DNA from: Candidatus Nealsonbacteria bacterium
GTDB lineage: Bacteria > Patescibacteriota > Minisyncoccia > Minisyncoccales > DAOVPY01
Direction of reading: 5' to 3'
Assembly (NCBI GenBank): GCA_030628945.1
Contig: DAOVPY010000002.1
Coordinates: forward strand, 23,831-87,830
DNA: 64,000 nucleotides
How positions within the stretch are numbered: position 1 is the stretch's first letter; every line of letters begins with the position of its first letter. Under the pieces are notes generated by a model. The model made no database searches. It was not told the origin of the DNA and saw only the letters and a list, made by a program, of their open reading frames with translations. The position numbers and the translations under genes are program-made. Positions 3,871 through 62,298 of this stretch are shown here, piece after piece.

Positions 3871-3988
3871 ATTTCGGGAAGTAATTTTAAGGATACGCTC
3901 GCTCGCTTCCTCGGCAAAATTCTCCCGCTAAAAGCGGGAGACCAAGCAATTTTGCCTCCGGATGCTCCTTAAAACTACTTCCCGAAAT
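3871..3988. repeat. 118-bp long imperfect palindrome in the pyrH / COG2403-gene spacer
   Basis: Outer arms atttcgggaagtaattttaagga / tccttaaaactacttcccgaaat (one mismatch). Inner arms ggcaaaatt / aattttgcc. Central hairpin ctcccgc-taaaa-gcgggag. Confidence 0.85.
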
Positions 3989-10186: not shown

Positions 10187-11107
10187 ATGAAACTAAAAAT
10201 TTTTATAATTGCGCTTTTGGTTAGTTTGCCTTTTTGGTGGGGCGCGAATATCCTGGAAAAAGATTTGCAAGAGATTTTCTATTGGCAGGAAATCGCGCGA
10301 AATCCCCAAATCCTTACAGCGCAGATTTATCCCGTTTATAATAGAGCAAATCAACAAAATTTAGAAATTTCCGCAAAAGCCGCGATTTGTGTTTATTCAA
10401 ACGGGAATAAAGAGAAAATCCTTTTTGAAAAAAACAGCGATAAAAAACTGCCAATTGCCAGTTTGTCCAAGTTAATGACCGCTCTGGTTGCTTTAGAACA
10501 TTATGATATGGAGCAGATTGTAAAAATTAGCAAAAGAGCGGCTGAACAGCCGGGAATTGACGCTGGAAAATTAAAAACTGGAGAAAAATTCCATGCAAAA
10601 GATGTTCTTTGGGCTATGCTGATAGGGTCAAATAACAGCGCCGCGTACGCTTTGGCTGAAATGATTAACGAGCAGGGATTTGTAGGGTTGATGAATTTGG
10701 AAGCAAAAAAAATCCACTTAGAAAACACTGTTTTCAAAAATCCCACCGGATTAGACCATTCGCAGCAATATTCTACTGCAAAGGATTTAGTAAAATTAAC
10801 TAATGAGCTGTTAGACAAGCATCCTGTGATATGGGAAATCCTTGTTAAACCTGAATTTGAACTCTGCTCTGTTGATAAAGCTTTCTCTTATAAATTTTTT
10901 AACACCAACGAACTTTTGGGAGAAATACCTTTAATTGTCGGAGGAAAAACAGGCGAAACCCCTAACGCAAATGGATGCTTTATTTTGGTTCTGAAAACGC
11001 AGGATAACGGATATTTGATAAACGTAATTTTGGGAAGCAATGACAGGTTTGGAGAAATGAAAAAACTAATCCACGAACAAATGAGCAAATTCAGAAAACA
11101 ATTTTAA
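10187..11107 (+). CDS. serine-type D-Ala-D-Ala carboxypeptidase (PBP5/S11-like)
   Basis: N-terminal signal/TM. SxxK (ASLSKLMT), SxN (GSNNSAA) and KTG (GGKTGET) motifs. Confidence 0.8.
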   Translation: MKLKIFIIALLVSLPFWWGANILEKDLQEIFYWQEIARNPQILTAQIYPVYNRANQQNLEISAKAAICVYSNGNKEKILFEKNSDKKLPIASLSKLMTALVALEHYDMEQIVKISKRAAEQPGIDAGKLKTGEKFHAKDVLWAMLIGSNNSAAYALAEMINEQGFVGLMNLEAKKIHLENTVFKNPTGLDHSQQYSTAKDLVKLTNELLDKHPVIWEILVKPEFELCSVDKAFSYKFFNTNELLGEIPLIVGGKTGETPNANGCFILVLKTQDNGYLINVILGSNDRFGEMKKLIHEQMSKFRKQF

Positions 11108-11128
11108 TGAGTATTAGGAGGCAAAATT

Positions 11129-11198
11129 GCTCGGTTTTCGCTCCAGCGAAAAATTTTGCGGACGCTTAAGCGAGTTTTGCCGCTGGAGCAAAACGAGC
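11129..11198. repeat. intergenic compound hairpin
   Basis: gctcggttttcgctccagcg pairs with cgctggagcaaaacgagc. Central palindrome cgcttaagcg. GC-richer than the flanks. Confidence 0.6.
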
Positions 11199-11240
11199 GG
11201 CTCGTTAAAATTGTTTTCTAAATTTGCTTCTATAACTATT

Positions 11241-12320
11241 ATGTCCCGCAAAAATATATTATTATTTTCATTGTTCGCAGTAATAATCCTGTTTGTATTG
11301 CTTTTGGTTTTTAAAGACAAAATTTTTCAAATTTCTGAAAACAACGAACAGATGGAAGAAACTAATTTATTTCATCCGGTTTTATTGGATTGGAAGCAGG
11401 CAACCTCAAGCGCGCCATGGTCAAAAAGGGACGCGGCCACAACACTGGTTTTTCAGGACAAAATTTGGCTGTTCGGAGGAATAGAGGGAAAGGATAATTT
11501 TGACAACAGATATTGGAAGCTTGTTCACAAAAATGATGTTTGGAATTCAGAGGATGGGAAAAACTGGAAATTAGTTCAGGATAGCGCTGATTGGAAGCCA
11601 AGAAGATCTTTGACAGCGATTAATTTTCAAGATAAAATTTGGCTGCTCGGAGGATGGGAAAAACAGAGCGGCTTGACAAAAAACGATGTCTGGCATTCTG
11701 AAAACGGAATAAACTGGATACAAGCTGTTTCTACTTCTTCGGATAAATGGAGTCCGCGCGAAGGCCATTGCGCTGTTGTTTTTGACAATAAAATTTGGGT
11801 GCTCGGAGGAGTGGATTTTGACAAAAGACAATGTAAAAATGATGTTTGGTATTCCGAGGACGGAAAAAATTGGCGCCTTGCAACGTCTTTTGCTCCATGG
11901 TCACCGAGATACGACCATACAGTAACCGTGTTTAAAAATAAAATGTGGATGATAGGGGGTGTTGGATTGGACCAGGATGGAGACGCTAAAAATGATGTTT
12001 GGGTTTCAGAAAACGGCAAAGATTGGAGCAGGATAACAACTAATATTATATTGCCCGAAAGACACGGGCATACTTCTGTTGTCTATAAAGATAGAATTTG
12101 GCTGCTCAGCGGCTGGAATACTCAAAAAAATAAGGGCTTAAAAGATGTTTGGTGGTCAAGAGACGGCGAACATTGGTCAAAAACTTCAGAAGATACTCCC
12201 TGGCTCGGAAGAGAAGACCATACTTCAATTGTTTTTCAGGATAAAATTTGGATAATGGGAGGAATGGATACTAATTGGGACTGGAAAAATGATGTCTGGT
12301 ATTCATCTTCCTCTTTTTAA
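11241..12320 (+). CDS. membrane-anchored Kelch-like beta-propeller repeat protein
   Basis: Start moved to MSRKNILLFSLFAVIILFVLLLV. About 7 repeats of W..R..H..VVF..KIW..GG...NDVW.SEDGKNW. Confidence 0.7.
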   Translation: MSRKNILLFSLFAVIILFVLLLVFKDKIFQISENNEQMEETNLFHPVLLDWKQATSSAPWSKRDAATTLVFQDKIWLFGGIEGKDNFDNRYWKLVHKNDVWNSEDGKNWKLVQDSADWKPRRSLTAINFQDKIWLLGGWEKQSGLTKNDVWHSENGINWIQAVSTSSDKWSPREGHCAVVFDNKIWVLGGVDFDKRQCKNDVWYSEDGKNWRLATSFAPWSPRYDHTVTVFKNKMWMIGGVGLDQDGDAKNDVWVSENGKDWSRITTNIILPERHGHTSVVYKDRIWLLSGWNTQKNKGLKDVWWSRDGEHWSKTSEDTPWLGREDHTSIVFQDKIWIMGGMDTNWDWKNDVWYSSSSF

Positions 12321-14066: not shown

Positions 14067-14936
14067 ATGAAAGCAGAAATAAAAGCGGTTAAACCGCGGA
14101 TTTGGAATTTTGAAGTTGTGAAAGGAAAAAACGCCTGGGAAGAAGTTGTTGAATGCGCCAGGTTGTCTAATGTGCCTAAAATCATTGAAGACGAAATTGT
14201 TTTTTTGATGATGATTGAAAATGATTATGGCTCTATTTTAGAACATATAGGTATAAAATTTAATATTCAAATGAGTAAAGGATGCGCATTGGAATTACTT
14301 GAACACAGAATAGCAAGCCATTCTGCCGCGTCAACGCGATACAGCGACGCTAACAAAATGATACAAGGGCGAGAATCTGTTTACGAAATAATTATGCCGT
14401 GGGAATATCTGTCGTTGCCGGAAAACGACCCTAAAAGAGTTTCATTTTTACGGTCTGTTAAACGAGACATAGAAACTTATCAATATGAATTAAAAGAATT
14501 AGGCGCAAGAAGAGAAAGCGCGCGATATAATCTGCCGTTTGCGCACGCAGCAGGAATATATCATTACACTATAAATTTAAGATCTTTGTTGAATTTTTTT
14601 GGTTTGCGATTATGCGTACGCGCGTCAGATGAGATTCGTTCCGTCGCGGCTCAATTATATTTTGAACTTTTGAAAGTTTTACCAAATGTTAGGGGACTAG
14701 TTGGCTGCCGTGGATTTGCTCTGGCGGTTTGCCTGGAAAATAATGTTACAGGAGTCAGAAAAGGCAAACCGCTTTCAGGATATTCGCCTTGCTTATTTAG
14801 AAATCCAAAGAGCGATATTTATATTGCAACAAAGAAAGAAATAAGAAAGGGACTAGTTTTGCAAAAATTCAATTTAGAAAAAGCGATAAAAACCCAAACA
14901 AAAATCTTCAAAAAATGGGCTGCCTGGGAGGGATAA
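14067..14936 (+). CDS. divergent ThyX-like (Thy1 family) protein
   Basis: Start moved to MKAEIKAV behind a GAGGGAAAG RBS. The ThyX signature reads EHRIASHSAASTRY rather than RHR..S....S.RY. ARYNLP and NLRSLLNFFGLR are also present. Cys-rich C-terminal extension. Confidence 0.6.
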   Translation: MKAEIKAVKPRIWNFEVVKGKNAWEEVVECARLSNVPKIIEDEIVFLMMIENDYGSILEHIGIKFNIQMSKGCALELLEHRIASHSAASTRYSDANKMIQGRESVYEIIMPWEYLSLPENDPKRVSFLRSVKRDIETYQYELKELGARRESARYNLPFAHAAGIYHYTINLRSLLNFFGLRLCVRASDEIRSVAAQLYFELLKVLPNVRGLVGCRGFALAVCLENNVTGVRKGKPLSGYSPCLFRNPKSDIYIATKKEIRKGLVLQKFNLEKAIKTQTKIFKKWAAWEG

Positions 14937-14947
14937 TATTCAAAAAA

Positions 14948-14974
14948 AATCGGATTAAGAAATTTAATCCGATT
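14948..14974 (+). terminator. rho-independent terminator after the thyX-like gene
   Basis: aatcggattaa-gaaat-ttaatccgatt followed by tttt. Confidence 0.7.
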
Positions 14975-15016
14975 TTTGCTTTCAGAAGAGTTTTAAGTTA
15001 TAATAAGATAAAAAAC

Positions 15017-16519
15017 ATGAGGAAAATTGATATTTTAAGAAAAAAATATCCGCGATTTGTTTATAAGAGCTATTCTTACAAAATAACCGGCAAAAACCTG
15101 GAGATTTTTTTTGACTTCAAAATTCGCGATATTTCTTTTAAACCGAGGATAATCATTAAAAATATTGGCAAAAAACAACTGGCATTGCTGGAAAAAGGAG
15201 TATTAAATAATTTTATTTTTCATCTTGGCATGATGGAAATTCCCAGTTATTGGAAAACAACCTGCTCTCCAATAATTGAGGTCAAAGCCGGCTATCTGTC
15301 AAAAGAACAAATTAAGTGGTGGAAGGACTTTATTGTAAATGGAATGGGGCAGTTTTTTTACGAAAACAAAATCAACTTCACAAAGCCAAACTTTTTTAGA
15401 ATTATTTCAAATCAACAAAGATTTAACGGAGAACAGTTCTCCGTTAATTTAACGGAGAACTGTTCTCCGTTATCTTTTGCGAAAAACAGAGTGTTAATTC
15501 CGATGGGCGAAGGCAAAGATTCAATCGTAACATTAGAGTTATTAAAGCAGGAATTTGGAAAGAGCGGTGTAAATTGCTTTATTGTTAATCCTGCAAAAAA
15601 CCATTTTCAGATTCTAAAAATCGCCGGAATTGAGGAGCCAATAATTGTAGAGCGAAAAATTGACCCTCTTTTGTTGAAACTTTATAAGCAAGGATTTCTA
15701 AACGGACACACTCCGATTACAGCCCTGATTTCTAATTTAGCTGTTTTTACGGCTGTTTTATTCGGTTTCAACTATGTGGCGCTGTCCTGCGAAAGAAGCG
15801 CTAACGAAGAAAATATAAAATACCTCGGAAAAACAATCAATCACCAGTGGTCCAAAAGTTTTGAATTTGAAAAAAAATTCAGAAATTATTTAGATACATA
15901 CTTAATAAACTACTCTCTTATTCGCGCGAATAAGAGAGTAAAAAAGGTGAATTATTTCAGTTTTTTGAGGCCGTTGTATGAAATTCAAATCGCCAAGATT
16001 TTCTCAAATTTTCCGCAATATTTTTCAAGTTTTCTAAGCTGTAATGAGGCCAGAAAAACAAAGTCGGGAACCAAAAAAGCCACAGGCCAATGGTGCGGCA
16101 ATTGTTCAAAATGCCTGTTTATCTTTAGCATCTTATACCCTTTTATTGACGAGAAAAGATTGATTAAAATTTTTGGGCAAAATCTTTTTGAAAAAAAAGA
16201 ATTGTTGCCAATAATGAAACAGCTTCTTAAAAAGAAAGAAACTAAACCCTTTGAGTGTGTAGGCACAAAAAAAGAATCTTTGATCGCTTTTTACCTGAGC
16301 TGGGAGAAAGCAAAAAATTTGAATTTTTCGACAGGGGTACAAAAAGTCAAATTTTCTTTGTCTTCACTTCCTCCCCTTTTGGAATATTTTGAGAAACAAA
16401 TTTTGCCGAAATATCCAAATCTTGAAAAACAATCCGAAAAAATGATGAATTCGTGGAACAAGCAAAATTATGTTCCGAAAGAATTAGAAAAAGCGTTGAA
16501 GTTGAAATTTAAAAATTAA
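15017..16519 (+). CDS. hypothetical protein with a PP-loop-like ATP pyrophosphatase motif
   Basis: Start moved to MRKIDILRKKYPRF, after the terminator. IPMGEGKDSIV resembles the SGGKDS PP-loop. C-terminal WCGNCSKCLF cysteine motif. Confidence 0.6.
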   Translation: MRKIDILRKKYPRFVYKSYSYKITGKNLEIFFDFKIRDISFKPRIIIKNIGKKQLALLEKGVLNNFIFHLGMMEIPSYWKTTCSPIIEVKAGYLSKEQIKWWKDFIVNGMGQFFYENKINFTKPNFFRIISNQQRFNGEQFSVNLTENCSPLSFAKNRVLIPMGEGKDSIVTLELLKQEFGKSGVNCFIVNPAKNHFQILKIAGIEEPIIVERKIDPLLLKLYKQGFLNGHTPITALISNLAVFTAVLFGFNYVALSCERSANEENIKYLGKTINHQWSKSFEFEKKFRNYLDTYLINYSLIRANKRVKKVNYFSFLRPLYEIQIAKIFSNFPQYFSSFLSCNEARKTKSGTKKATGQWCGNCSKCLFIFSILYPFIDEKRLIKIFGQNLFEKKELLPIMKQLLKKKETKPFECVGTKKESLIAFYLSWEKAKNLNFSTGVQKVKFSLSSLPPLLEYFEKQILPKYPNLEKQSEKMMNSWNKQNYVPKELEKALKLKFKN

Positions 16520-18845: not shown

Positions 18846-20825
18846 TTAAATATCCAAGTTTTTAACTTTTTTGGCGTGCGCCTGGATGAACTTTCTACGG
18901 GGAAAAACCTCGTCGCCCATTAAAATATCAAAAATCCGGTCCGCCTCTTTGGCATTCTCAACAGTCACTTTCAATAAAATTCTGTTTTCCGGATTCATTG
19001 TTGTTATCCACAATTCTTCCGGATTCATTTCTCCCAAACCTTTATATCTTTGAATTGACGCAGGGGCCTGTTTCTGTTTCTTTATATCGCTTAAAATCTC
19101 TGTTTTGTCAGCATCGGTATAAGCGTATTCCAAGCGCCTGCCGCTTTGAATTTTGTAAAGCGGCGGCTGGGCAATGTAAAGATAGCCTTTTTCAATTATT
19201 TGAGGAAAATAACGGTAAAACAAGGTTAAAAGCAAAGTCCGAATATGCGAACCGTCCACATCAGCGTCAGACATCAATATAATTCTATGATATCTTAATT
19301 TTTCCAGATTAAAATCCTCGGCAATTGCCGTGCCCATGGCGATAATTAAAGATTTTATTTCTTTTGAATCCAAAATTTTATCCAAACGGGCCCTTTCCAC
19401 ATTCAAAATTTTTCCTTTGAGCGGCAAAATGGCCTGAAACCGCCGGTTCCTTGCCTGACGGCTGGAGCCTCCGGCTGATTCTCCTTCCACAATATAAAGT
19501 TCGGATTCCTCGGGCAAGCGCGAACTGCAATCAGCCAGTTTTCCTGGCAGGGCTAATCCGTCTAACGCGCCTTTTCTTAAAACGGTCTGCCGGGCCGCCC
19601 TTGCAGCTTTTCTTGCTTTGGCAACCAAAAGACAATTTTCAATAATAACTCTGGCATCCTGGGGATATCTTTCCAAAAAATCACACAAGCCCTCGGAAAC
19701 AACCGATTCCACTGCGAGCCGCGCTTCTGGATTGCCTAATTTTGCCTTTGTCTGCCCCTCAAATTGAGGTTCTTTTATTTTGACCGAAATTACACCGGTA
19801 AAGCCCTCTCTTATATCTTCGCCGGTAAGATTATCATCGCCGTCTTTAAGATAATTACTCCTTCTGGCATAATCATTAAGCGTTCGGGTAAGGGCGGCTC
19901 TAAAACCAGTAAGATGGCTTCCTCCCTCGCCCGTATAAATGTTATTGGCAAAACTTTCCTCGTAAGCTTCCCTCTCGTTAGTGTATCTGAAAGCGCCCTC
20001 TACTAAAATCCCCTCTTTTTCGCCATGCGTATAAAAAATTTCCTGCTGGCGAAAAGAAACGCCTCGCGTGAGATGCTTAATATACGCCCGAAGCCCGCCC
20101 TCAAAATAAAAAGTATAAATCTTATCCGGCGCTTTATCGTCGCGGCTGTCTTGAATGGTTATTTTAATACCTCTTGTCAAATAAGCCTGCTGGCGAAGAT
20201 GATTTAAGACCTTTTTCAGATTGAATTTTACTTCTTTAAAAATCTCCGTGTCCGGCTCAAAAGTAACGGTGGTTCCTGTCTGCCGGCAGGGGCTGATTTT
20301 TTTTACTTTTGTTTTCGCTATTCCCTCAGAATATTCCTGAACATACTTAAAACCTTGCCTGCAAACTTCGGCTTTCATATAAGAAGACAAAGCGCAAACA
20401 ACTGAAACGCCAACCCCGTGAAGACCGCCGGCCACCTGATATGCCTTGCCTCCAAATTTTGCTCCGGCATGCAGGGTAGTCATCACTGTCTCCAGGGCCG
20501 ACTTTTTGGTCTGAGGATGCTTGTCAACCGGAATGCCCCGGCCGTTGTCAGAAACCCTTACTCTGTTATTCGGCAAAAAACTTACTTCCATCCTGTTCCC
20601 GTATCCCATTATAAATTCATCTAAAACATTGTCGCAGCATTCCCAAATTAAATGATGTAAACCGTCAAATCCTGTAGAACCAATATACATTGCGGGCCGG
20701 CGCCGCACCGGAGCCAGACCTTGCAGGACATAAATGTCCTTTGCTGTATAGGATTCCTTTTGTTTTCGGGACTTCTTTATTTCCTTTATCTTATTTTGTT
20801 TTTTGATTATTTTTTTACGAACCAT
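18846..20825 (-). CDS. gyrB: DNA gyrase subunit B
   Basis: GLHHLIWECCDNVLDE, GGLHGVG, EGESAGGS, PLKGKILNVE, IMSDADVDGSHI. Confidence 0.97.
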   Translation of the reverse strand: MVRKKIIKKQNKIKEIKKSRKQKESYTAKDIYVLQGLAPVRRRPAMYIGSTGFDGLHHLIWECCDNVLDEFIMGYGNRMEVSFLPNNRVRVSDNGRGIPVDKHPQTKKSALETVMTTLHAGAKFGGKAYQVAGGLHGVGVSVVCALSSYMKAEVCRQGFKYVQEYSEGIAKTKVKKISPCRQTGTTVTFEPDTEIFKEVKFNLKKVLNHLRQQAYLTRGIKITIQDSRDDKAPDKIYTFYFEGGLRAYIKHLTRGVSFRQQEIFYTHGEKEGILVEGAFRYTNEREAYEESFANNIYTGEGGSHLTGFRAALTRTLNDYARRSNYLKDGDDNLTGEDIREGFTGVISVKIKEPQFEGQTKAKLGNPEARLAVESVVSEGLCDFLERYPQDARVIIENCLLVAKARKAARAARQTVLRKGALDGLALPGKLADCSSRLPEESELYIVEGESAGGSSRQARNRRFQAILPLKGKILNVERARLDKILDSKEIKSLIIAMGTAIAEDFNLEKLRYHRIILMSDADVDGSHIRTLLLTLFYRYFPQIIEKGYLYIAQPPLYKIQSGRRLEYAYTDADKTEILSDIKKQKQAPASIQRYKGLGEMNPEELWITTMNPENRILLKVTVENAKEADRIFDILMGDEVFPRRKFIQAHAKKVKNLDI

Positions 20826-20833
20826 AGTATTAA

Positions 20834-20947
20834 ACGTAAAGTGTAAAGTGAAAAGCGCAAAATAACAACTAAAAATTCAAAACAAAATTAAATTAAAAGT
20901 TTTAAGTTTTGAACTGTTGCTTTTCGCTTTTCGCTTTTCGTTTTGAG
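20834..20947. repeat. palindromic intergenic repeat element, copy 1
   Basis: Shares a 63-nt block (20867-20929) with 26428-26490, differing at one position. Flanks hold AAAGTG-type and cttttcg-type short repeats. Internal inverted repeats include ttcaaaac / gttttgaa. Confidence 0.9.
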
Positions 20948-20949
20948 TT

Positions 20950-23034
20950 TTATTTTCTTACTTCCCACGACGGCTGGCTTTCCAGCGCTTGCGCGATTTT
21001 TTGATGGACTGCGTCTATTTCTTTCGCGGTCAGAGTTCTGTCCTTTGCCTGATAAATAATATGAAAGGCGAAATTCTTTTTTCCCTCGGGCAATTCTTCG
21101 CCTTCGTAAATATCAAAAACATCCACATCCATGATTAATTTCCCTCCTGCCGTGTTAATTTTATTCAAAACCTCCACCACTTTTACTTTCCTCGGCACCA
21201 AGACAGCGATATCCCGGACAGCTGCCGGATAAGCGGAAATTGGCTGATACACCTGTTCTTCCGAGCATTGCTTTGCCAATCTTTCAAAATCAATGTTAAA
21301 AGCAACTACTCTTTGTTTAATTTTCAAAACTCTCAAAACCCCCTCGGAAATCCCTGCTAAAAATCCTATCTCTTCTCTATTAATCTTTATAACCGCGCAT
21401 TGTTCAAATGGGCGCATACCCGATTTTTTTGACGAACACTCATTATACCAAATATCGCTGATGCCTAATTTATTTAATAGTAAATCAACTATTCCTTTTA
21501 ATTCGTAAAACCCTTGTTTTGTTTCTCTTGTTGTTATAACACCCGCCAGACTCGTTTTTTCATGATTTTTACCAATAAAAATTTTGCCAATCTCAAAAAC
21601 TTTTATTTTCTCAAAATATTCTTGATTTTTTTGAATATTTTTCAGTAAATTGGGAATCAAACTCGGCCTCAAATATTTCTGCTCAACACTCACCGGATTC
21701 TCAACCTCAAGTAATCCCGGAATTTGTAACTTAAAATTTGAAACTTGTTTAGGGGAAATAAAAGAATAATTATAGACCTCTGCAAATCCAACTTCTTTCA
21801 AAATATTTTTTACCATTCCCTGCCAAAACAAATTGTCATTTTTCTGCGGCGGAATTAAAGTTGTTGTTGGCAAAATCCCGTTAATTTTTTCATATCCAAA
21901 AATTCGCGCAATTTCCTCAATTAAATCTTCCGGAATAGAAATATCTAATCTGAATGTGGGAACGCCCACATTCAGAATTTTCCTGAACCACGCTTTTAAC
22001 GGGGGACTCCCCCGCAGGGCTGCTTTGCTCCCGCTTTCAACGGGATTCAAACCCAATGATTTTAGAATTTTTATTATCTCTTTTTTGGAAATTTTTACGC
22101 CCAATAATTTATCAATATAAACCAAGTCCAATTTGATTATTTTTGGCAAGACCTTCTTGGGATAAAAATCCAGCAAGCCATTTGCGATTTTTCCATGGCT
22201 AATTTCTTGAATTAAACTTGTCGCTTTATTTATTGCCGCTTCAGTTAAATTCGGGTCTAATCCATGTTCAAAACGATAAGAGGCGTCAGTTTTCAGATTC
22301 AGCAATTTTGAACCTCGCCGAATAATTTGCGGCTCAAAATTCGCGGCCTCCAAAACTATTGTTTTGGTATTTTCATCAATCTCCGCTTTTTTGCCGCCTT
22401 TAATCCCGGCTATGGCCAACGGTTCCTTACTATCCGCAATTACTAAAATATTCTCATCTAACTCATATTTACTCCCATCCAAAGTGATTATCTCTTCTCC
22501 TCTCTTCGCTTTTCTCACAATGATTGTTTTGCCTTTGATTTTCTCAAAATCAAAAGCGTGCAGGGGTTGTCCTGTTTCTAACATTACATAATTTGCCGCG
22601 TCAACCACGTTATTGATTGGCTGTAAACCGCAAATTTTCAACCGCTCTTGCATCCATTTTGGCGAAAGACCAACTTTTACGCCAGTAATCATCCGGGCTG
22701 TATAACGAGAACACGATTTTTTGTCCGCAACTTCTACATTTAAAAAATTCTTGATGTTTAACTTTGAACTTTTAACTTTAATTTTTAACTTTTCATTTTT
22801 GACTTTTAACTTTGTAATCGCTCCTATCTCTCTCGCTAATCCCAAATAACAAGCGCAATCCGGCACCCTGTTTGGCAAAATATCAACATCCAAAACCCAA
22901 TCCTTGCCAGATTTTCTAATTTCTTCAACTTCAAAACTGCGAATAGCCAAAATCTCTGCCAACTTCTCTGGCTTGGGTAATTTTTTATTGAAAAAAGATT
23001 GCAGCCAATTATATGAAAAAATCATAATAATCAA
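20950..23034 (-). CDS. pheT: phenylalanyl-tRNA synthetase beta subunit
   Basis: FSYNWLQSF start, B3/4 and B5 regions, DLIEEIARIFGYEKI. 694 aa. Overlaps the pheS stop by 4 nt. Confidence 0.9.
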   Translation of the reverse strand: MIIMIFSYNWLQSFFNKKLPKPEKLAEILAIRSFEVEEIRKSGKDWVLDVDILPNRVPDCACYLGLAREIGAITKLKVKNEKLKIKVKSSKLNIKNFLNVEVADKKSCSRYTARMITGVKVGLSPKWMQERLKICGLQPINNVVDAANYVMLETGQPLHAFDFEKIKGKTIIVRKAKRGEEIITLDGSKYELDENILVIADSKEPLAIAGIKGGKKAEIDENTKTIVLEAANFEPQIIRRGSKLLNLKTDASYRFEHGLDPNLTEAAINKATSLIQEISHGKIANGLLDFYPKKVLPKIIKLDLVYIDKLLGVKISKKEIIKILKSLGLNPVESGSKAALRGSPPLKAWFRKILNVGVPTFRLDISIPEDLIEEIARIFGYEKINGILPTTTLIPPQKNDNLFWQGMVKNILKEVGFAEVYNYSFISPKQVSNFKLQIPGLLEVENPVSVEQKYLRPSLIPNLLKNIQKNQEYFEKIKVFEIGKIFIGKNHEKTSLAGVITTRETKQGFYELKGIVDLLLNKLGISDIWYNECSSKKSGMRPFEQCAVIKINREEIGFLAGISEGVLRVLKIKQRVVAFNIDFERLAKQCSEEQVYQPISAYPAAVRDIAVLVPRKVKVVEVLNKINTAGGKLIMDVDVFDIYEGEELPEGKKNFAFHIIYQAKDRTLTAKEIDAVHQKIAQALESQPSWEVRK

Positions 23035-25259: not shown

Positions 25260-26387
25260 TTAAGCTTTAACTTCTTCAACTATTTTTTCCATTTCCATTT
25301 CTTTTGAACCGGTAATCAAAATCAAATCCCCTTTTTTCATTTTTTTCTGCAAAGCAAGGCCGGCTTCCGCGGTTTTGTCAAATTGAAAAATATTTTCCTT
25401 TGGAATTCCTTTGTCTAAAGCGCTTTTCGCGATAAATTTTGCTCTTTGCCCAACGGTAAAAAGCAAATCTACGCAGGCGGCCGCTTTCTCTCCAAGGGAT
25501 TCATGAGCTTCAACGCTATATTTCCCGATTTCTAAAATATCTCCCAAAACAGCGATTTTTCTGCCGTTTAAACCTCGCTTCTTTAAATCCAAACCCCATG
25601 GATTAATCCTTGATAAAATCTCCAGGGCCTCTGTTGTAGAATAAACAGTGGCGCCATTGCTGTTGTCTAAAATCCAGGAATTTTTTATCCCCTTGAGCAG
25701 CTTCATGCGGCCGCGTATACCCTGATAATTTTTTAGGGCTTGAGAAATTTGAACTAAATTCAAGCCAAAAATTATGCCAGCGGACGCCGCCACTAAGGCG
25801 GCGTAGATTTGTTCTTTGCCGAAAACCTTTTCCAGCCAAAATGGAATAATGTTGCCCTTATGATTTATTTTAAAATTTGTGCCGCCGTTTAATAAAATAT
25901 CGCTGGCCCGAAAATCAGCGTTTTTCTGAAAACCAAACGTCAAAGTGTGAAGATTGGTGAAATCGTCTATTTCTCTCACGGTTTCATCATCAAAATTTAA
26001 AATTAAATAACTGCGGGCTGGCAATGTCTTGGACAATTCAACAATCTCTTTAAGTTGTTTTTTCTCCCCGGCGAAAAAATCTTTATTTGAAGGAATCTCT
26101 CCTATATGGGTTATTGCCAAAACCAACAGCCGCGATTTCTTAATGAAAAAATTTAGATTTTGGGCTGTCCCGCCTCTCGCGCTTTTTTCAAAAAAAGTAA
26201 AGGGTAAAATCAAAACTTCGGACCCTAAAACACTCTTAAGGCCGATGTTTTGGCACTTTTTAACCTTAAAATGCTGAGATAAAATGATATAAATTGCCTC
26301 AGCCGCCGTCTCGTAATTATTGCCGGCGACAATAATGAGTTTCGGCTTTTTAAGAGAGAATATAAGTTTTGTGAAAAAATCAAACAT
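25260..26387 (-). CDS. Mur-ligase family protein, MurF-like with a degenerate ATP-binding loop
   Basis: C-terminal half is MurF-like (GRMKLL...ILDNSNGATVYST...KIAVLGDILEIGKYSVEAHESLG). The position of GxxGKT reads VAGNNYET. Confidence 0.65.
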   Translation of the reverse strand: MFDFFTKLIFSLKKPKLIIVAGNNYETAAEAIYIILSQHFKVKKCQNIGLKSVLGSEVLILPFTFFEKSARGGTAQNLNFFIKKSRLLVLAITHIGEIPSNKDFFAGEKKQLKEIVELSKTLPARSYLILNFDDETVREIDDFTNLHTLTFGFQKNADFRASDILLNGGTNFKINHKGNIIPFWLEKVFGKEQIYAALVAASAGIIFGLNLVQISQALKNYQGIRGRMKLLKGIKNSWILDNSNGATVYSTTEALEILSRINPWGLDLKKRGLNGRKIAVLGDILEIGKYSVEAHESLGEKAAACVDLLFTVGQRAKFIAKSALDKGIPKENIFQFDKTAEAGLALQKKMKKGDLILITGSKEMEMEKIVEEVKA

Positions 26388-26404
26388 AATCGCTAACGCT
26401 CAAA

Positions 26405-26522
26405 GCGTAAAGTGTAAAGCGAAAAAAGCAAAATAACAACTAAAAATTCAAAACAAAATTTAATTAAAAGTTTTAAGTTTTGAACTGTTGTTTTGCGTTT
26501 TTCACTTTTCATTTTGCGTTTT
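26405..26522. repeat. palindromic intergenic repeat element, copy 2
   Basis: See copy 1. Same orientation, again between the stop of one minus-strand gene (ftsI) and the start of the next. Confidence 0.9.
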
Positions 26523-26524
26523 TT

Positions 26525-28195
26525 TTAGTGGTCCGGCGGAATTTGATAAGAGTCAATGATATGTTTGGCTAATTTCTGAAAAATTGGCAACGCCGAATAT
26601 TCAGCCGTTTTGGTCTTGGGATTGTCTAATTTAACTAAAATCAAAAATTCTGGCTCAAAAGCCGGAGCCCAGCCAATAAACGACTGCCAGGTTTTATCGG
26701 CTGAATATGTTCCCTTTTCCGGCACCTGAGCCGTGCCGGTTTTGCCGGCAACATAATAACCCGGGATTTTCGCGCCTTTGGCAAAACCGTTTTCCACCAC
26801 GCTTACCAACATCGCCGTAAGAACAGAAGCTGTCCTCCGGGAAATTATATCATGGGAAATTATCTCGGGCCTGGTTTCAATTATTTTATCATTTTCAATA
26901 ATTTTTTCCACCACATAGGGCTTAATTAATTTCCCGCCGTTAGCAACAACGCAGAAAGCCCTTGCCAGCTGAATCGGAGTCATCTCAACCCCCTGGCCGA
27001 AAGACGCGGTAGCGAAATTTATTTCATAGCCCTTTTTCAACTCTTCATTAAGAGAACTAATTTCCCACGGCAAATCAATCCCTGTCTTTTCTAAAAGTCC
27101 AAAACGTTCAATATATTCCAAAAAAACATTATGTCCGGCTTGTCTTTCGGCAAACACGGCGCCGGTATTAATGGACTTCTCCAGAACCTCGGTCATTGAA
27201 ATTTTGCCCGGATAAATCATTTGTCCGTAATTTTCAATAGTTCTGCCACCTATTTTTACAATTCCCGGATCAACATACAATGTCTGCGGCGTTATTTTCT
27301 CTTCGTTAAGAGCGGCGGCCATGGTGATTACCTTAAAAACCGAACCGGGTTCAAAGAGTTTCTGAACCGCGCCGTTGAGAAATATCTCAAAATTTTCTTC
27401 TTCAGAATATTTATTGGGATTAAAACAAGGAAAATTGGCTAAAGCAAGAATCTTGCCGGAATGCGGATTCATAACTATAATCTCACCCCCTTCAATATCT
27501 AAATTGTCTTGCGCTTCTTTCAATAATTTTTCGGCAAAATATTGAATGTCGTAATCAACGGTAAGAATAAGGTCGGCTCCTTTTTCAGTTTTATTCCTCT
27601 CTAATAAAGAAAAGAACAAATATCCGCCAGAACCCCTTTCTCCCTCCATAAGCCCTTGCTCCCCCTTTAAAACATCATTCCAATATTCTTCCAAACCATA
27701 TTGACCGGCTCCCTCTCCTCCCAAAAAACCAACAAGCTGAGAAGCTAAAGACTTTTGAGGATATTCCCGCCAAATTTCTTCTCTCAAATAAACCCCGTGC
27801 AAATTTAACGTTTCTAAAGCATCCGCTTGTTCCGTGGTTAATCGCGTCTTGAGTAATTCAAATGAACTGCTGTTTTTTTCGATTTTTCTCAAAACCCATT
27901 CCTGGTCCAAGCCCAGAACGTCATTCAATAGGGCAGCTGTTTCCTGTTTTTTATCAATTTCCTTGGGCGAAACGTAGAGATATTTTCCTTTAATGCTGGT
28001 TGCCAATATTTCTTTGTTTTTAAAAAAAATCCCGCCTCGCTCTCCCTGAGTGGAAGAAAAAATTTTCTGCTGGCCCATGGCCAAAGCGCTGTAAAAATCG
28101 TAATAAATAACTTGGAGAAAAAACAAGCGGGTTCCTATTACCGCTCCAAAAAGAATAATTAAAATTAAAATGAAATTCGTCCGCCAATGTTTCAT
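26525..28195 (-). CDS. ftsI: penicillin-binding protein 2/3-type transpeptidase
   Basis: N-terminal TM. SxxK (GSVFKVIT), SxN (KSINT), KTG (GKTGTAQ). Sits in the dcw cluster. Confidence 0.9.
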   Translation of the reverse strand: MKHWRTNFILILIILFGAVIGTRLFFLQVIYYDFYSALAMGQQKIFSSTQGERGGIFFKNKEILATSIKGKYLYVSPKEIDKKQETAALLNDVLGLDQEWVLRKIEKNSSSFELLKTRLTTEQADALETLNLHGVYLREEIWREYPQKSLASQLVGFLGGEGAGQYGLEEYWNDVLKGEQGLMEGERGSGGYLFFSLLERNKTEKGADLILTVDYDIQYFAEKLLKEAQDNLDIEGGEIIVMNPHSGKILALANFPCFNPNKYSEEENFEIFLNGAVQKLFEPGSVFKVITMAAALNEEKITPQTLYVDPGIVKIGGRTIENYGQMIYPGKISMTEVLEKSINTGAVFAERQAGHNVFLEYIERFGLLEKTGIDLPWEISSLNEELKKGYEINFATASFGQGVEMTPIQLARAFCVVANGGKLIKPYVVEKIIENDKIIETRPEIISHDIISRRTASVLTAMLVSVVENGFAKGAKIPGYYVAGKTGTAQVPEKGTYSADKTWQSFIGWAPAFEPEFLILVKLDNPKTKTAEYSALPIFQKLAKHIIDSYQIPPDH

Positions 28196-29904: not shown

Positions 29905-29961
29905 GCTGAATGTAGTACGAACTTTGTGAGTTATCCACAAAATTCGAAGTTATTAACATAG

Positions 29962-30003
29962 TTTTCCACAATCTCCCACTACACTTTATCTATACTCCAC
30001 TTT
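29962..30003 (-). promoter_or_regulatory. candidate MraZ operator (GTGG-type boxes at helical spacing)
   Basis: The minus strand reads AAAGTGGAGTATAGATAAAGTGTAGTGGGAGATTGTGGAAAAC. GTGG words sit at offsets 0, 21 and 31, with GTGT at 16. The region is 60-100 nt upstream of mraZ. Confidence 0.45.
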
Positions 30004-30041
30004 ATATGCCTCGTCAACCCTTATTTTTCCACAGAATATCC

Positions 30042-30075
30042 ACAACCCCGCCTTTGTGTACAAAAGCGGGGTTGT
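30042..30075. repeat. long GC-rich hairpin
   Basis: acaaccccgc ... gcggggttgt, with an internally pairing loop (tttgt/acaaa). Confidence 0.7.
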
Positions 30076-30108
30076 GCCCCACTCTAAAAATAAAAATCCC
30101 CTAAACCA

Positions 30109-30150
30109 ATCCATTACAAACTAATCCGATCGGATTAGTTTGTAATGGAT
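30109..30150. repeat. perfect 42-bp palindrome
   Basis: atccattacaaactaatccga|tcggattagtttgtaatggat with no mismatches. Confidence 0.95.
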
Positions 30151-30164
30151 ATAAAAACAAAAAA

Positions 30165-30189
30165 CAAAATAAAAAGCGCCTACGGCGCC
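30165..30189 (-). terminator. rho-independent terminator of the 35394-30191 operon
   Basis: The minus strand reads GCGCC-GTA-GGCGC followed by TTTTTATTTTGTTTTTT, immediately after the stop at 30191. Confidence 0.75.
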
Positions 30190-30190
30190 T

Positions 30191-30412
30191 TTATTTATTT
30201 AGCTCAAAACATTCTAAAAGTTTTTCTGCTTCTTCTAATCTCAATACTCTGTATCTATCTCCGCCAGACTCTTTTATAGTTTTTATATCTTTTTGTAAAA
30301 CCCGTATAACTTCCTTAACTTTCATATCAGAAAGATATACCATTATTTTTGTCTTTTTCAAAATATGAAGAACCGCTCTAATTTCTTCCGCAGAAAGTAT
30401 TAATTCTGCCAT
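30191..30412 (-). CDS. hypothetical small protein (73 aa)
   Basis: Start moved to MAELILSAEEIRAV, preceded by an AGGAGG RBS. The longer track version overlaps the upstream ORF. Confidence 0.55.
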   Translation of the reverse strand: MAELILSAEEIRAVLHILKKTKIMVYLSDMKVKEVIRVLQKDIKTIKESGGDRYRVLRLEEAEKLLECFELNK

Positions 30413-51578: not shown

Positions 51579-51800
51579 CTACTCCCATCTTAACCTGGAG
51601 GGCAAAATAGTTTCAATGAGTGGCTCTTCTATTATACCAAAAGAACCAATTTCAATGAAACCGCTTACCTCCAGGTTCTTGCCAGAAGGCAAGGCGTCCC
51701 AAGGGACACAAGCGGTTCGTATTTAGTATAATATCCTATCTTACACAAACTAAAAACCCTGTCAAGGGCGACAAGATTTTTAGCAAAATTCTGGATCCTT

Positions 51801-52013
51801 TTATATTTGCGATTTGTTTATCAGTATAAGCTCGCTCGCTTCGTTTTGCCACTCCCTAAGCGCTTTCAGCATTGCCGCTACAATTCCGATTATTCCTGCC
51901 GGAAGCAAAATTTGAAATTCTTGCGAACTCAAAAGCCCGATGACTCCCGCCACTACAAAAATCTCAATGAACCGCATCACTATTCTCTTTATGGTTGTAT
52001 TATAAATGCTCAT
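51801..52013 (-). CDS. holin-like small membrane protein
   Basis: 70 aa with two TM helices, next to the lysin gene. Confidence 0.45.
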   Translation of the reverse strand: MSIYNTTIKRIVMRFIEIFVVAGVIGLLSSQEFQILLPAGIIGIVAAMLKALREWQNEASELILINKSQI

Positions 52014-52051
52014 GATGGTTTTTAGATTTCGTTTTTAAATTATTCGACCTT

Positions 52052-52438
52052 TTATAAATACTTCAAATAAAGCCCTGACCAATATCCAACCCAGTCATCT
52101 ATGCGTCCTTTCCTATATCTGTCAATCATTAAATTAACGCATTTGTTAATATCATTAAGGGCTTCCCATTTTGTAATTAGTTGCATTTTTTCAATATACC
52201 ATTCTGAATTATACTGACATAAACCATAATCATAACTGCCGTTCCAATTTCTGTTTATCGCTTTCGGGTTCATATCTGATTCAGCGTAGATTACTGCCAC
52301 TATCAAATTGCATTCCCATTCTTCTAATCTTCTCTTTTCGCAAATTCTTCTGACTTTTAATTCAACCCTTAATTTTTTAAGAGCTTGAAGCTGTAAAGAG
52401 ATTATTTTTTTAATAAGAGAAATGATTTTGAATTTCAT
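52052..52438 (-). CDS. lytic transglycosylase (SLT-domain) endolysin
   Basis: Start moved to MKFKIISL so that its ATG overlaps the upstream TGA. VIYAESDMNPKA...YDYGLCQYN fits the SLT E-S...GLxQ pattern. Confidence 0.7.
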   Translation of the reverse strand: MKFKIISLIKKIISLQLQALKKLRVELKVRRICEKRRLEEWECNLIVAVIYAESDMNPKAINRNWNGSYDYGLCQYNSEWYIEKMQLITKWEALNDINKCVNLMIDRYRKGRIDDWVGYWSGLYLKYL

Positions 52439-52701
52439 TTTGTTAAAATATAAATTATTAAAGCGGTAACGATAGTCACTAACGCGGTAATAAAATGAGA
52501 CAATCTCCAAGAGGGCTTTTCCACATTCTTAATAAGCGCTAAATTTAATTTTTCCCGCGATTCTTTTCTAAAATCGTTAAAATCTTTTACAAAGTGAGGG
52601 AAATCATTATCCAGAAATTTCAAAAACCGCTCTGATAAAACTTCCTGCCGGGCCATTCGTTCATATAGAGATATCTCTTTTTTGTTATTGTTTTCTGACA
52701 T
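52435..52701 (-). CDS. small membrane protein (holin or spanin candidate)
   Basis: 88 aa with a C-terminal TM (ITALVTIVTALIIYIL). Translationally coupled to the lysin. Confidence 0.45.
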   Translation of the reverse strand: MSENNNKKEISLYERMARQEVLSERFLKFLDNDFPHFVKDFNDFRKESREKLNLALIKNVEKPSWRLSHFITALVTIVTALIIYILTK

Positions 52702-52741
52702 AGGACTTTACAAAATTTTAATTATAAAGTATTAAATAATA

Positions 52742-52909
52742 ATGAAAGAGCGAATTAAAACAATCTGGGAATTTATCAAAACTAATTGGTTTAAAATTGC
52801 TATTTTAATATCGCTCTATTGGTTTATTCAGGAAATCAGTTATTTAAATAACTTAAGTATAGATATTTGGCATCACTCCCCTTCTTCTTCTCTTCCCGGT
52901 CTTCATTAG
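52742..52909 (+). CDS. possible small TM protein, below the ORF-track cutoff
   Basis: Own translation MKERIKTIWEFIKTNWFKIAILISLYWFIQEISYLNNLSIDIWHHSPSSSLPGLH. Opposite strand to its neighbours. Confidence 0.25.
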   Translation: MKERIKTIWEFIKTNWFKIAILISLYWFIQEISYLNNLSIDIWHHSPSSSLPGLH

Positions 52910-52910
52910 T

Positions 52911-56414: not shown

Positions 56415-56458
56415 ATCTAAAAAAGATAAATAAAATAAAACTTCTAATCCTCGGTTTT

Positions 56459-57688: not shown

Positions 57689-57689
57689 A

Positions 57690-57905
57690 TTATTTTTGTG
57701 GTTGTTTCGCTAATTTAATCTTGCCCGTCTTAAGGTCTATTTCGTAGTTTTGATTCATATCTAAAGAATAACGAGGGAGCAAATTTTTAATATAAATCTG
57801 ATTTTGAATTTCTAAAGCCTGAGAAATCAAGATATGCTGATTTATCAAATCAGCTCTTTTTTTTAATTCTTCTAAATCTTCTGATTTTAATTTTTTCTCA
57901 AACAT
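57690..57905 (-). CDS. phage hypothetical small protein
   Basis: 71 aa. Its stop is adjacent to the next gene's start. Confidence 0.4.
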   Translation of the reverse strand: MFEKKLKSEDLEELKKRADLINQHILISQALEIQNQIYIKNLLPRYSLDMNQNYEIDLKTGKIKLAKQPQK

Positions 57906-57978
57906 AATTTTGATTTGATTTATTGACTTAATTCGACGTTTAATTTGACTTATTTTTTAATTAAGTTATCATTTAATA

Positions 57979-58533
57979 ATGGACACAAAATCTTTAATCA
58001 GCGGAATTTTAATCGGGGCTATTGCTATTCCTACCTTAGGAATGGCCGGCTCATTTACCAGTTCTCTCATTGCCGGTAAAACTCCCGCTGAAGCTGTAGA
58101 AATCCTCGCCACTCGGATTGACACTCTCATCGGCCGGGTTGAAATTGTTGAGACCAAACAGACAAAAACCGAATTGTGGCAAGAAAAAGAAGATGCGTGT
58201 AATAAGGCAAGAGACTTTTTGACTGAAAATATGCCTACTGGATATAAATGGTTTTTAGACACAATTTCTCGTCGAGAAAGAGGTATTATGGGAACTGAAT
58301 CTCAAATTAGTCTTCTAATCTGTCAAGGATTTGTGAAAGAAGAAGAAGATTGCAAAATCGGAGAAGTAAATTGTAAAGGCAAATGCATAACAGTTGAAGA
58401 TAGAAAAAATTCGCAAACATACTTAGAAACAAATGCTAAACCAGAACTTTCAAGACTTATTTCTATCAAAGAACAATATTTATTGCTTAAACAGAAATGT
58501 GATGATTTAACCGACCAATATAATTCTTTATAA
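57979..58533 (+). CDS. opposite-strand membrane-anchored Cys-containing protein (moron candidate)
   Basis: 184 aa. N-terminal TM (GILIGAIAIPTLGMAG). Followed by its own hairpin terminator. Confidence 0.55.
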   Translation: MDTKSLISGILIGAIAIPTLGMAGSFTSSLIAGKTPAEAVEILATRIDTLIGRVEIVETKQTKTELWQEKEDACNKARDFLTENMPTGYKWFLDTISRRERGIMGTESQISLLICQGFVKEEEDCKIGEVNCKGKCITVEDRKNSQTYLETNAKPELSRLISIKEQYLLLKQKCDDLTDQYNSL

Positions 58534-58561
58534 AAAGAACTAATCTTTAATTTTATTTTCT

Positions 58562-58586
58562 GTCGCTCTTTATGAGCGATTTTTTA
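58562..58586. terminator. bidirectional hairpin between convergent genes
   Basis: gtcgctc-tttat-gagcgat followed by tttttattt. Confidence 0.6.
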
Positions 58587-61608: not shown

Positions 61609-61633
61609 TTTACTTTATTTTTTAATTATGTAT

Positions 61634-62293: not shown

Positions 62294-62298
62294 ATTTT

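What the first reader, a model, noticed from the sequence alone, without database searches (positions are those of the whole stretch)
20834..20947. Repeated ~115-bp palindromic intergenic element (second copy at 26405-26522)
A 63-nt block (20867-20929 versus 26428-26490) differs at a single position, although the two copies are 5.5 kb apart. Both copies sit in the same orientation between the stop of one minus-strand gene and the start of the next (pheT/gyrB and ftsI/murF-like). The element has internal inverted repeats (ttcaaaac/gttttgaa, caac...gttg). Its flanks are built from short direct repeats: gtAAAGTGtAAAGTGaAAAG on the left and cttttcg-type on the right. The AAAGTG words echo the candidate MraZ boxes upstream of mraZ, and copy 2 lies inside the division cluster. 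The element could be a terminator-promoter cassette, a small RNA gene, or a MITE.
Basis: seen in the sequence. Interest (0 to 1): 0.55.

Follow-up and report, generated by a model that had tools for sequence, protein, structure and literature searches.

The report
Small palindromic mobile insert, two copies
Two near-identical, non-coding, hairpin-forming DNA inserts of about 120-130 bases sit right after the stop codons of pheT and ftsI in an uncultured Parcubacteria-type bacterium; close relatives lack them at the same places, so they look like an ordinary small mobile repeat (a MITE-like element), not a special regulatory site.

Summary
Two copies lie at 20833-20950 and 26396-26525, both in the same orientation. 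They are 90% identical over 124 nt, and a 63-nt core differs at one base.

Each copy fills an unusually long spacer (124 and 137 nt) between co-directional essential genes: pheT|gyrB and ftsI|Mur ligase. In four related genomes the same junctions are only 1-28 nt long, so both copies are lineage-specific insertions. Each is bracketed by TA. Removing copy 1 restores a junction like that of a relative.

The element is 74-75% A+T and non-coding. It is an imperfect palindrome built from heptads (AAARYG-N) that point inward. No Rfam family, strong promoter or canonical terminator was found.

No third copy occurs in about 80 kb of the source scaffold or in about 50 kb of relatives. Exact 22-mer scans of public collections gave only chance hits.

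The best reading is a new, low-copy MITE-like element of the Correia/ERIC/RUP kind, probably co-transcribed passively. The MraZ link fails on box spacing. Genome-wide copy number remains unknown. Interest is low to moderate.

The parts
20833..20950 (-). Copy 1 of the element. It is 118 nt when read in gene orientation and lies between the pheT stop and the gyrB start. Its first A completes the pheT TAA stop codon.
   Evidence: The site is empty in L008, L009 and L010.
26396..26525 (-). Copy 2 of the element. It is 130 nt and lies between the ftsI stop and the Mur-ligase start. It has one more outer heptad pair than copy 1, and its first A completes the ftsI TAA stop codon.
   Evidence: The site is empty in L009 and L013.
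20857..20919 (.). Near-invariant 63-nt core of copy 1. It holds the apical hairpin TTCAAAAC...GTTTTGAA and the CAAC/GTTG pair.
   Evidence: Divergence between the copies is 1/63 in the core against 10/55 in the arms, Fisher p=0.0027.
26428..26490 (.). Near-invariant 63-nt core of copy 2.
20914..20950 (-). Copy 1, arm at the 5' end in gene orientation. It consists of five A-rich heptads: AAACTC AAAACGA AAAGCGA AAAGCGA AAAGCAA.
20833..20868 (-). Copy 1, arm at the 3' end in gene orientation. It consists of T-rich heptads that mirror the 5' arm, and it contains the weak promoter-like string TTGTTA-17-TACACT.
26485..26525 (-). Copy 2, 5' arm, made of A-rich heptads.
26396..26439 (-). Copy 2, 3' arm, made of T-rich heptads. 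It contains the same TTGTTA-17-TACACT string.
20951..20952 (-). TA flanking copy 1 on the upstream side. It forms the first two bases of the pheT stop codon and is a candidate target-site duplication together with 20831-20832.
   Evidence: Removing the element and one TA gives AGAAAATAATACTATGG, compared with AGAAAATAATATGG in L009.
20831..20832 (-). TA flanking copy 1 on the downstream side.
26526..26527 (-). TA flanking copy 2 on the upstream side. It forms the first two bases of the ftsI stop codon.
26394..26395 (-). TA flanking copy 2 on the downstream side.

Best explanation
The two copies belong to a previously undescribed, low-copy, non-autonomous palindromic insertion element. It is MITE-like, of the same kind as Correia/NEMIS, ERIC and RUP, and it sits in a Parcubacteria-type (near Nealsonbacteria) CPR genome.

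Shown here: both copies are insertions that relatives lack. Each sits exactly at the TA of a stop codon in what was a very short spacer of an operon of essential genes. The element's terminal A regenerates a TAA stop. The element is non-coding and A+T-rich. It is an imperfect palindrome built of inward-pointing heptads around a 63-nt core.

Inferred: the element was mobilised in trans, possibly by a TA-targeting transposase of the IS630/Tc1 type encoded elsewhere. It is now co-transcribed within the pheST-gyrB and dcw messages as a long imperfect hairpin. That hairpin is 6-11 kcal/mol weaker on the sense strand, where A.C mismatches replace G.U pairs. It lacks a U-tract after it, so transcription probably reads through. 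At most it would modulate mRNA stability or processing, as described for ERIC. It is most likely a tolerated passenger rather than a dedicated regulator.
For: Filled versus empty sites, pheT-gyrB junction:
- The spacer is 124 nt here.
- It is 11 nt in L008 (GyrB 88% identical), 1 nt in L009 (78%) and 1 nt in L010 (80%).

Filled versus empty sites, ftsI-Mur ligase junction:
- The spacer is 137 nt here.
- It is 26 nt in L009 and 28 nt in L013 (Mur ligase 68% identical).

Other junctions of this gene string are at most about 50 nt.

Boundaries: similarity between the copies ends at the gene boundaries. Deleting copy 1 plus one TA restores a junction that aligns with those of relatives.

Composition and structure:
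- The copies are 118 and 130 nt and 74-75% A+T, against 63% for the window.
- The terminal arms are imperfect inverted repeats.
- As RNA the + strand folds at -32 kcal/mol (copy 1) and -42 kcal/mol (copy 2), with z-scores of -4.4 and -5.8. The gene-sense strand folds at -26 and -33 kcal/mol, with z-scores of -2.8 and -3.5.

Negative searches: no Rfam family matched, and no promoter or terminator consensus hit fell inside either copy.

Fit to the class: these features match the description of bacterial MITEs in PMC2229807. That description lists elements under 200 bp, without protein-coding capacity, with terminal inverted repeats, TA at the termini, A+T richness, target-site duplication, transcripts that form long stem-loops, and ERIC co-transcribed with orientation-dependent effects.
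Against: - Only two copies were found in about 80 kb of the source scaffold (record 521-80914). The searches were blastn with word size 7 and a covariance model. This is roughly a tenth of a typical CPR genome.
- No copy was found in about 50 kb from four relatives.
- Exact 22-mer scans of GTDB genomes and JGI metagenomes gave only chance hits.
- No transposase or IS with matching ends was seen.
- The TA 'duplication' is weak evidence in A+T-rich DNA.
- Conservation runs opposite to the usual MITE pattern: the termini are the most diverged part (10/55) and the centre the least (1/63; p=0.0027). This hints either at selection on the core or at rapid turnover of the heptad arms.
Confidence: 0.65

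Rival explanations
1. The element is a selected cis-acting RNA module. On this view the hairpin, and especially the invariant 63-nt core, is kept because it controls stability, processing or translation of the flanking essential genes within the polycistronic mRNA. It would act as an RNase processing or stabiliser site that uncouples gyrB and the Mur ligase from their upstream genes. This could be a domesticated state of the same mobile element.
For: The core is far better conserved than the arms (1/63 against 10/55, p=0.0027). One compensatory pair (G-C to A-U, columns 25/97) and several changes that preserve pairing occur between the copies. Both copies have the same orientation relative to the genes. 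Orientation-dependent effects of ERIC on mRNA stability are a precedent (PMC2229807).
Against: Two sequences cannot establish covariation. Relatives do without the element at both junctions. The sense strand is the weaker folder. No known RNA family matches.
Confidence: 0.15
2. The element is a DNA-level protein-binding site. The contiguous heptads (AAARYG-N, four or five per arm, with the two arms pointing inward) would be iterons for a DNA-binding protein. The analogy is with the contiguous 7-bp repeats bound by the ribbon-helix-helix omega repressor of pSM19035 (from my own knowledge, not tested here).
For: The 7-nt periodicity is strong and statistically clear. AAAGYG-N-AAAGYG occurs five times in the window, all inside the two copies, against 0.13 expected.
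Against: No candidate binding protein was identified. The heptads are the most variable part of the element. The element is absent from relatives. Tandem heptads can also arise by slippage.
Confidence: 0.08
3. The element is a small RNA gene on the + strand, antisense to the operons. The long hairpin followed by a T-run would serve as its terminator.
For: The + strand folds better: -32 and -42 kcal/mol with 5-6 G.U pairs, against 2 G.U pairs on the other strand. T-runs follow the hairpin on the + strand (GAGTTTTATTTT and GCGTTTTTTTT).
Against: The sequences upstream on the + strand are unrelated coding DNA (the 5' ends of gyrB and the Mur ligase gene), with no shared or consensus promoter. Part of the T-run in copy 1 comes from the target: it is the complement of the conserved pheT codons AGA AAA TAA. 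No Rfam match was found.
Confidence: 0.05
4. The element is an MraZ operator or an MraZ-controlled cassette inside the division cluster.
For: AAAGTG words occur in the left arm. AAAGTGG and AAAGTGT also occur upstream of mraZ. Copy 2 lies inside the dcw cluster.
Against: MraZ sites are GTG(G/T) boxes separated by 6 nt, which gives a 10-nt period (PMC12957436). The element's boxes have a 7-nt period, and some read GCG. GTGK-N6-GTGK matches 29966-29979 upstream of mraZ but neither copy. AAAGTG occurs 27 times in the window. Copy 1 lies outside the dcw cluster, and relatives lack both copies.
Confidence: 0.03
5. The copies arose by local segmental duplication or are a chance similarity.
For: Only two copies were found, and they are 5.6 kb apart.
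Against: No flanking gene fragments are shared, because identity stops at the stop and start codons. None of 100 shuffles gave any match to either core half. Relatives have both junctions empty, which requires two separate insertions.
Confidence: 0.02

Closest known systems
Correia/NEMIS elements of Neisseria (bacterial MITEs)
   Same: They share a size of about 107-155 bp, A+T richness and lack of coding capacity. Both have terminal inverted repeats of about 24 bp and TA at the termini or as a target duplication. Both insert next to genes and are co-transcribed, and their transcripts fold into long stem-loops (PMC2229807).
   Different: There is no sequence similarity. Correia elements occur in roughly 100-250 copies per genome (PMC5039591), against two copies seen here in 80 kb. 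Correia ends are well conserved and carry promoter elements. Here the ends are the least conserved part and only a weak promoter-like string exists. The heptad-built arms are not a Correia feature.
ERIC/IRU of enterobacteria
   Same: ERIC is a 127-bp imperfect palindrome that lies between genes of one operon. It is co-transcribed and affects mRNA stability in a way that depends on orientation (PMC2229807).
   Different: The host phylum and the sequence are different. ERIC has short terminal repeats (7 bp) and no heptad architecture. No functional data exist for the present element.
RUP of Streptococcus pneumoniae (IS630-Spn1-dependent MITE)
   Same: RUP is about 107 bp, targets TA and is intergenic. 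It is thought to be mobilised in trans by an IS630-family transposase (PMC2229807).
   Different: RUP ends match a known IS, whereas no partner IS was found here. RUP has about 108 copies.
MraZ operator (GTG(G/T)-N6 repeats; AAAGTGT-N3 in Mycoplasma)
   Same: The AAAGTG word is shared.
   Different: The period is 7 nt instead of 10. The element is not upstream of mraZ, and it is absent in relatives.

Membership tests
Bacterial MITE (Correia/ERIC/RUP kind, as defined in PMC2229807) | Small (under about 200 bp) and without coding capacity | tested here: met
   The copies are 118 and 130 nt. No ORF of at least 60 aa starts in either copy, and there is no ATG in the sense-strand element.
Bacterial MITE (Correia/ERIC/RUP kind, as defined in PMC2229807) | A+T-rich | tested here: met
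   The copies are 74% and 75% A+T, against 63% for the window.
Bacterial MITE (Correia/ERIC/RUP kind, as defined in PMC2229807) | Terminal inverted repeats | tested here: met
   In both copies the 5' 45 nt align with the reverse complement of the 3' 45 nt. The repeats are imperfect, least so at the very tips. The whole element is an imperfect palindrome (I1, 9).
Bacterial MITE (Correia/ERIC/RUP kind, as defined in PMC2229807) | Target-site duplication / TA at the termini | tested here: inconclusive
   TA brackets both copies at 20951-52/20831-32 and 26526-27/26394-95. Removing copy 1 with one TA gives a junction like that of L009. However, TA is common in this DNA, and the boundaries can slide by a few bases.
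Bacterial MITE (Correia/ERIC/RUP kind, as defined in PMC2229807) | Filled and empty sites among related genomes (evidence of insertion) | tested here: met
   The pheT-gyrB site is empty in L008, L009 and L010. The ftsI-Mur ligase site is empty in L009 and L013.
Bacterial MITE (Correia/ERIC/RUP kind, as defined in PMC2229807) | Multiple dispersed copies in the genome | tested here: inconclusive
   Two copies were found in about 80 kb of the 145-kb source scaffold. The rest of the genome could not be reached. Exact 22-mer scans of public collections gave only chance hits.
Bacterial MITE (Correia/ERIC/RUP kind, as defined in PMC2229807) | Partner IS/transposase with matching ends | tested here: inconclusive
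   No other sequence in the window or in the extended scaffold matches the arms. Only about a tenth of the genome was seen.
Bacterial MITE (Correia/ERIC/RUP kind, as defined in PMC2229807) | Transcript predicted to form a long stable stem-loop | tested here: met
   The predicted energies are -26 to -42 kcal/mol, with z-scores of -2.8 to -5.8.
MraZ operator | Three or more GTG(G/T) boxes separated by 6 nt (10-nt period), upstream of mraZ (PMC12957436) | tested here: not met
   The element's boxes have a 7-nt period. GTGK-N6-GTGK is absent from both copies and present at 29966-29979 upstream of mraZ.
Intrinsic (Rho-independent) terminator in gene orientation | Short G+C-rich stem followed directly by a U-tract | tested here: not met
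   The scan reports no terminator-like site in either copy. In the sense strand the hairpin is followed by GTTTAATACT in copy 1 and by GCTTTGAGCG in copy 2.
Any Rfam RNA family | Score at or above the family's gathering threshold | tested here: not met
   Only tRNAs reach gathering threshold in the window. In the permissive scan the best hits are generic miRNA-precursor hairpins at 23 bits or less, against thresholds of 68-211 bits.

The most novel reading that the evidence does not exclude
The invariant 63-nt core flanked by inward-pointing arrays of contiguous heptads may not be a passive passenger. It could be a domesticated module that a minimal-genome CPR bacterium uses at operon junctions of essential genes. 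It might act as a heptad operator for a ribbon-helix-helix-type protein, or as an RNA processing or stabilising hairpin that uncouples gyrB and Mur-ligase expression from the genes upstream.
Probability: 0.1. Interest if true: 0.5.

Novelty: new member of a known kind. Interest (0 to 1): 0.25.

Why it matters
If the reading is right, a streamlined CPR (Parcubacteria-type) genome has recently taken up a small palindromic mobile element. Such genomes have 1-30 nt spacers and few described mobile elements. The element inserted into the TA of stop codons inside operons of essential genes (pheST-gyrB and the division/cell-wall cluster) without destroying them. That makes a tidy example of how MITE-like DNA can colonise a very compact genome. 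It also warns annotators not to read such inserts as regulatory sites such as MraZ boxes. It does not open a new mechanism.

Tried and rejected
1. Possible third copy inside pheT at 22763-22813 (D4). It is coding sequence for a Lys-rich stretch, KLKVKNEKLKIKVK, so the resemblance is compositional only.

2. Strain variants L002 and L003 as a conservation test. They are the same strain, 100% and 99.96% identical over 13 and 7 kb, so they carry no information.

3. Exact 22-mer scans of genome contigs and metagenome contigs. They gave 1 and 3 hits, all in unrelated contexts and therefore chance. The viral-contig scan and the phage blastn search gave nothing.

4. Covariance model R1 built from the two copies. 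Besides the two copies it found nothing below E about 0.25 in about 195 kb of window, scaffold extensions and relatives.

5. MAFFT alignments of filled and empty sites. They misplaced the long gap, so I replaced them with an explicit excision-and-align test.

6. Integron attC site. By reading the sequence, the ends do not fit R'' RYYYAAC / R' GTTRRRY. The neighbours are essential housekeeping genes, not cassettes.

7. REP/RAYT-type element. The element is too long and A+T-rich, and it has no GTAG head (by reading the sequence).

8. Small hydrophobic ORF on the + strand starting at TTG 20909. It runs into unrelated flanking DNA, and its Phe-rich sequence simply reflects the T-rich heptads.

9. 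Left-edge look-up with the MarC ORF and right-edge look-up with ORF 62299-63744. These did not return the long scaffold. Neighbouring ORFs did.

10. Literature search for MITEs in CPR/Patescibacteria. It found nothing relevant.

Full report
**What is there.** The window holds two copies of one sequence. The repeat finder reports 20832-20955 and 26403-26526 at 90% identity over 124 nt, 5571 nt apart and in the same orientation. Pairwise alignments agree. The two halves of the central block match exactly at 20857-20889/26428-26460 and at 20891-20919/26462-26490. None of 100 dinucleotide-preserving shuffles gave any match. The 63-nt block with a single difference is therefore 20857-20919 in copy 1.

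**Gene context.** All neighbouring genes are on the minus strand. Pfam identifies, in order:
- mraZ, rsmH, a small ORF, and an FtsI-type PBP (26525-28195);
- [copy 2];
- a Mur ligase (25260-26387), a GH3 protein, a small ORF, pheS and pheT (20950-23034);
- [copy 1];
- gyrB (18846-20825).

Each copy fills its whole spacer, 124 and 137 nt. The other spacers of this gene string are at most about 50 nt, and several genes overlap.

**Anatomy.** I read the element in gene orientation. It is 74-75% A+T, against 63% for the window. It consists of about five A-rich heptads (AAARYG-N), a central part, and about five mirrored T-rich heptads.
- The 7-nt period is clear. Lag-7 autocorrelation is 0.64 and 0.59, against 0.37 +/- 0.04, and none of 2000 shuffles reached the observed value.
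- AAAGYG-N-AAAGYG occurs five times in the window, all inside the two copies, against 0.13 expected.
- The whole element is an imperfect palindrome. As RNA the + strand folds at -32 and -42 kcal/mol (z -4.4 and -5.8). The gene-sense strand folds at -26 and -33 kcal/mol (z -2.8 and -3.5).
- The difference arises because 5-6 G.U pairs on the + strand become A.C mismatches on the sense strand.
- Divergence between the copies is uneven: 1 of 63 core positions against 10 of 55 arm positions, Fisher p=0.0027.
- One arm pair changed on both sides (G-C to A-U), and several one-sided changes keep pairing. Two sequences cannot carry a covariation argument.

**Known families.** At gathering thresholds the window has only tRNAs. 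A permissive scan of copy 1 gives only generic miRNA-precursor hairpin hits far below threshold. The promoter/terminator scan places no site inside either copy. The only shared promoter-like string in gene orientation is TTGTTA-17-TACACT, which matches 8 of 12 positions. By contrast, the mraZ promoter region carries a good TTGACG-17-TATAGA. In the sense strand the hairpin is followed by GTTTAATACT in copy 1 and GCTTTGAGCG in copy 2, which is not a U-tract.

**Source and relatives.** The identical GyrB lies on ENA ERZ23498683 scaffold_23 (144,953 bp). The window corresponds to record positions 8623-72622. GyrB homologues at about 75% identity are named Candidatus Nealsonbacteria or Parcubacteria by their sources, so this is a CPR bacterium.

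Contigs of the closest relatives show the same gene order but no element.
- pheT-gyrB: the spacer is 11 nt in L008 (GyrB 88% identical), 1 nt in L009 (78%) and 1 nt in L010 (80%).
- ftsI-Mur ligase: the spacer is 26 nt in L009 and 28 nt in L013 (Mur ligase 68% identical).

The end of pheT (…AGA AAA TAA) and the start of gyrB (ATGGTTCGTAAA) are conserved between the window and L008, so the extra 113-118 nt is a clean insertion. Both copies are bracketed by TA, and the upstream TA forms the first two bases of the stop codon. Cutting out 20833-20950 together with one TA leaves AGAAAATAATACTATGG. This aligns with L009's AGAAAATAATATGG. For copy 2 the same operation predicts an ancestral CAC TAG CGATT ATG. 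In both cases the element's first A rebuilds a TAA stop. TA is frequent in this DNA, so I rate the duplication as consistent but not proven.

**Copy number.** blastn with 7-nt words and a covariance model built from the two copies (R1) find no further copy in three places:
- the window itself;
- the scaffold extensions, which cover record 521-80914 in all;
- about 50 kb from four relatives.

An exact 22-mer from the core gave one hit in 185,579 GTDB species genomes and three in JGI metagenomes. All four lie in unrelated contexts. Nothing turned up in viral contigs or phage records. The remaining roughly 90% of the source genome could not be reached with the tools, so the genome-wide count is open.

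**Interpretation.** The features fit the published description of bacterial MITEs: under 200 bp, non-coding, terminal inverted repeats, TA termini, A+T-rich, target duplication, and transcripts that form long stem-loops (PMC2229807). ERIC in particular is a 127-bp imperfect palindrome that is co-transcribed inside operons and has orientation-dependent effects on mRNA stability.

I therefore read the pair as a new, low-copy MITE-like element that inserted twice at stop-codon TA sites of tight operon junctions. In a genome with 1-30 nt spacers, stop codons are among the few TA targets whose disruption is harmless, provided a stop is rebuilt.

Mobilisation in trans, read-through transcription and a neutral-to-mild effect on expression are inferences.

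Two things do not fit a textbook MITE. First, the tips are the most diverged part and the centre the most conserved. Second, the arms are made of tandem heptads. These points keep alive, at low probability, a selected RNA module or a heptad-binding protein site.

[quoted passage not shown] In Mycoplasma genitalium the site is AAAGTGT-N3 repeated (PMC12957436). The element's boxes are 7 nt apart, and some read GCG. GTGK-N6-GTGK matches upstream of mraZ (29966-29979) but not in the copies. AAAGTG occurs 27 times in the window. Copy 1 is outside the division cluster, and relatives lack both copies. The resemblance is lexical.

**Verdict.** The repeat is real and well bounded. It is best filed as a new member of a known kind, the small palindromic non-autonomous insertion elements. 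It is of modest interest unless the whole genome shows that the core is under selection.

Noticed in passing
window 15424-15473 and 15911-15940: Perfect palindromes lie in frame inside the MurL-like ORF 14915-16519(+). One is two tandem copies of TTAACGGAGAACWGTTCTCCGTTAA. The other is a 30-nt palindrome, CTACTCTCTTATTCGCGCGAATAAGAGAGTA. They could be short palindromic insertions in coding sequence, as seen for Rickettsia RPEs.
   Followed up: partly
window 11084-11228 and 3941-3986: A second intergenic palindrome has 28-nt arms that are 93% complementary and 89 nt apart, upstream of the Kelch-repeat gene. Its left part also matches 3941-3986 in inverted orientation (46 nt, 78%). This may be another small repeat family (I21 and I2).
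   Followed up: no
window about 51600-64000 and about 8 kb beyond (L014): A prophage-like block contains an SU10-type major capsid protein and an SLT-like lysozyme. It also holds large ORFs of 735 and 1167 aa and many ORFs without a Pfam hit.
   Followed up: no
window 62304-62402: A 33-nt unit is repeated three times in tandem (two identical copies, the third 79%). It sits at the 3' end of ORF 62299-63744(-) in the prophage-like block (D6).
   Followed up: no
window 29960-30195 (minus strand, upstream of mraZ): This region holds a good sigma-70-like TTGACG-17-TATAGA and a GTGG-N6-GTGG candidate MraZ box at 29966-29979. Upstream lie a perfect palindrome with roughly 19-nt arms (ccattacaaactaatccgatcggattagtttgtaatgg, about 30113-30150) and two terminator-like hairpins at 30041-30076 and 30172-30192.
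   Followed up: partly
window 11430-12270: Direct repeats with a period of about 150 nt (families D1 and D2) are the blades of a Kelch/beta-propeller protein and are not a DNA element.
   Followed up: partly
window 26388-26410 (minus strand): Copy 2 ends in a small extra hairpin, ACGCT-TTG-AGCGT, just before the Mur-ligase start codon. It mirrors the outermost heptad at the 5' end of copy 1, so copy 1 seems to have lost one outer heptad at its 3' end.
   Followed up: partly
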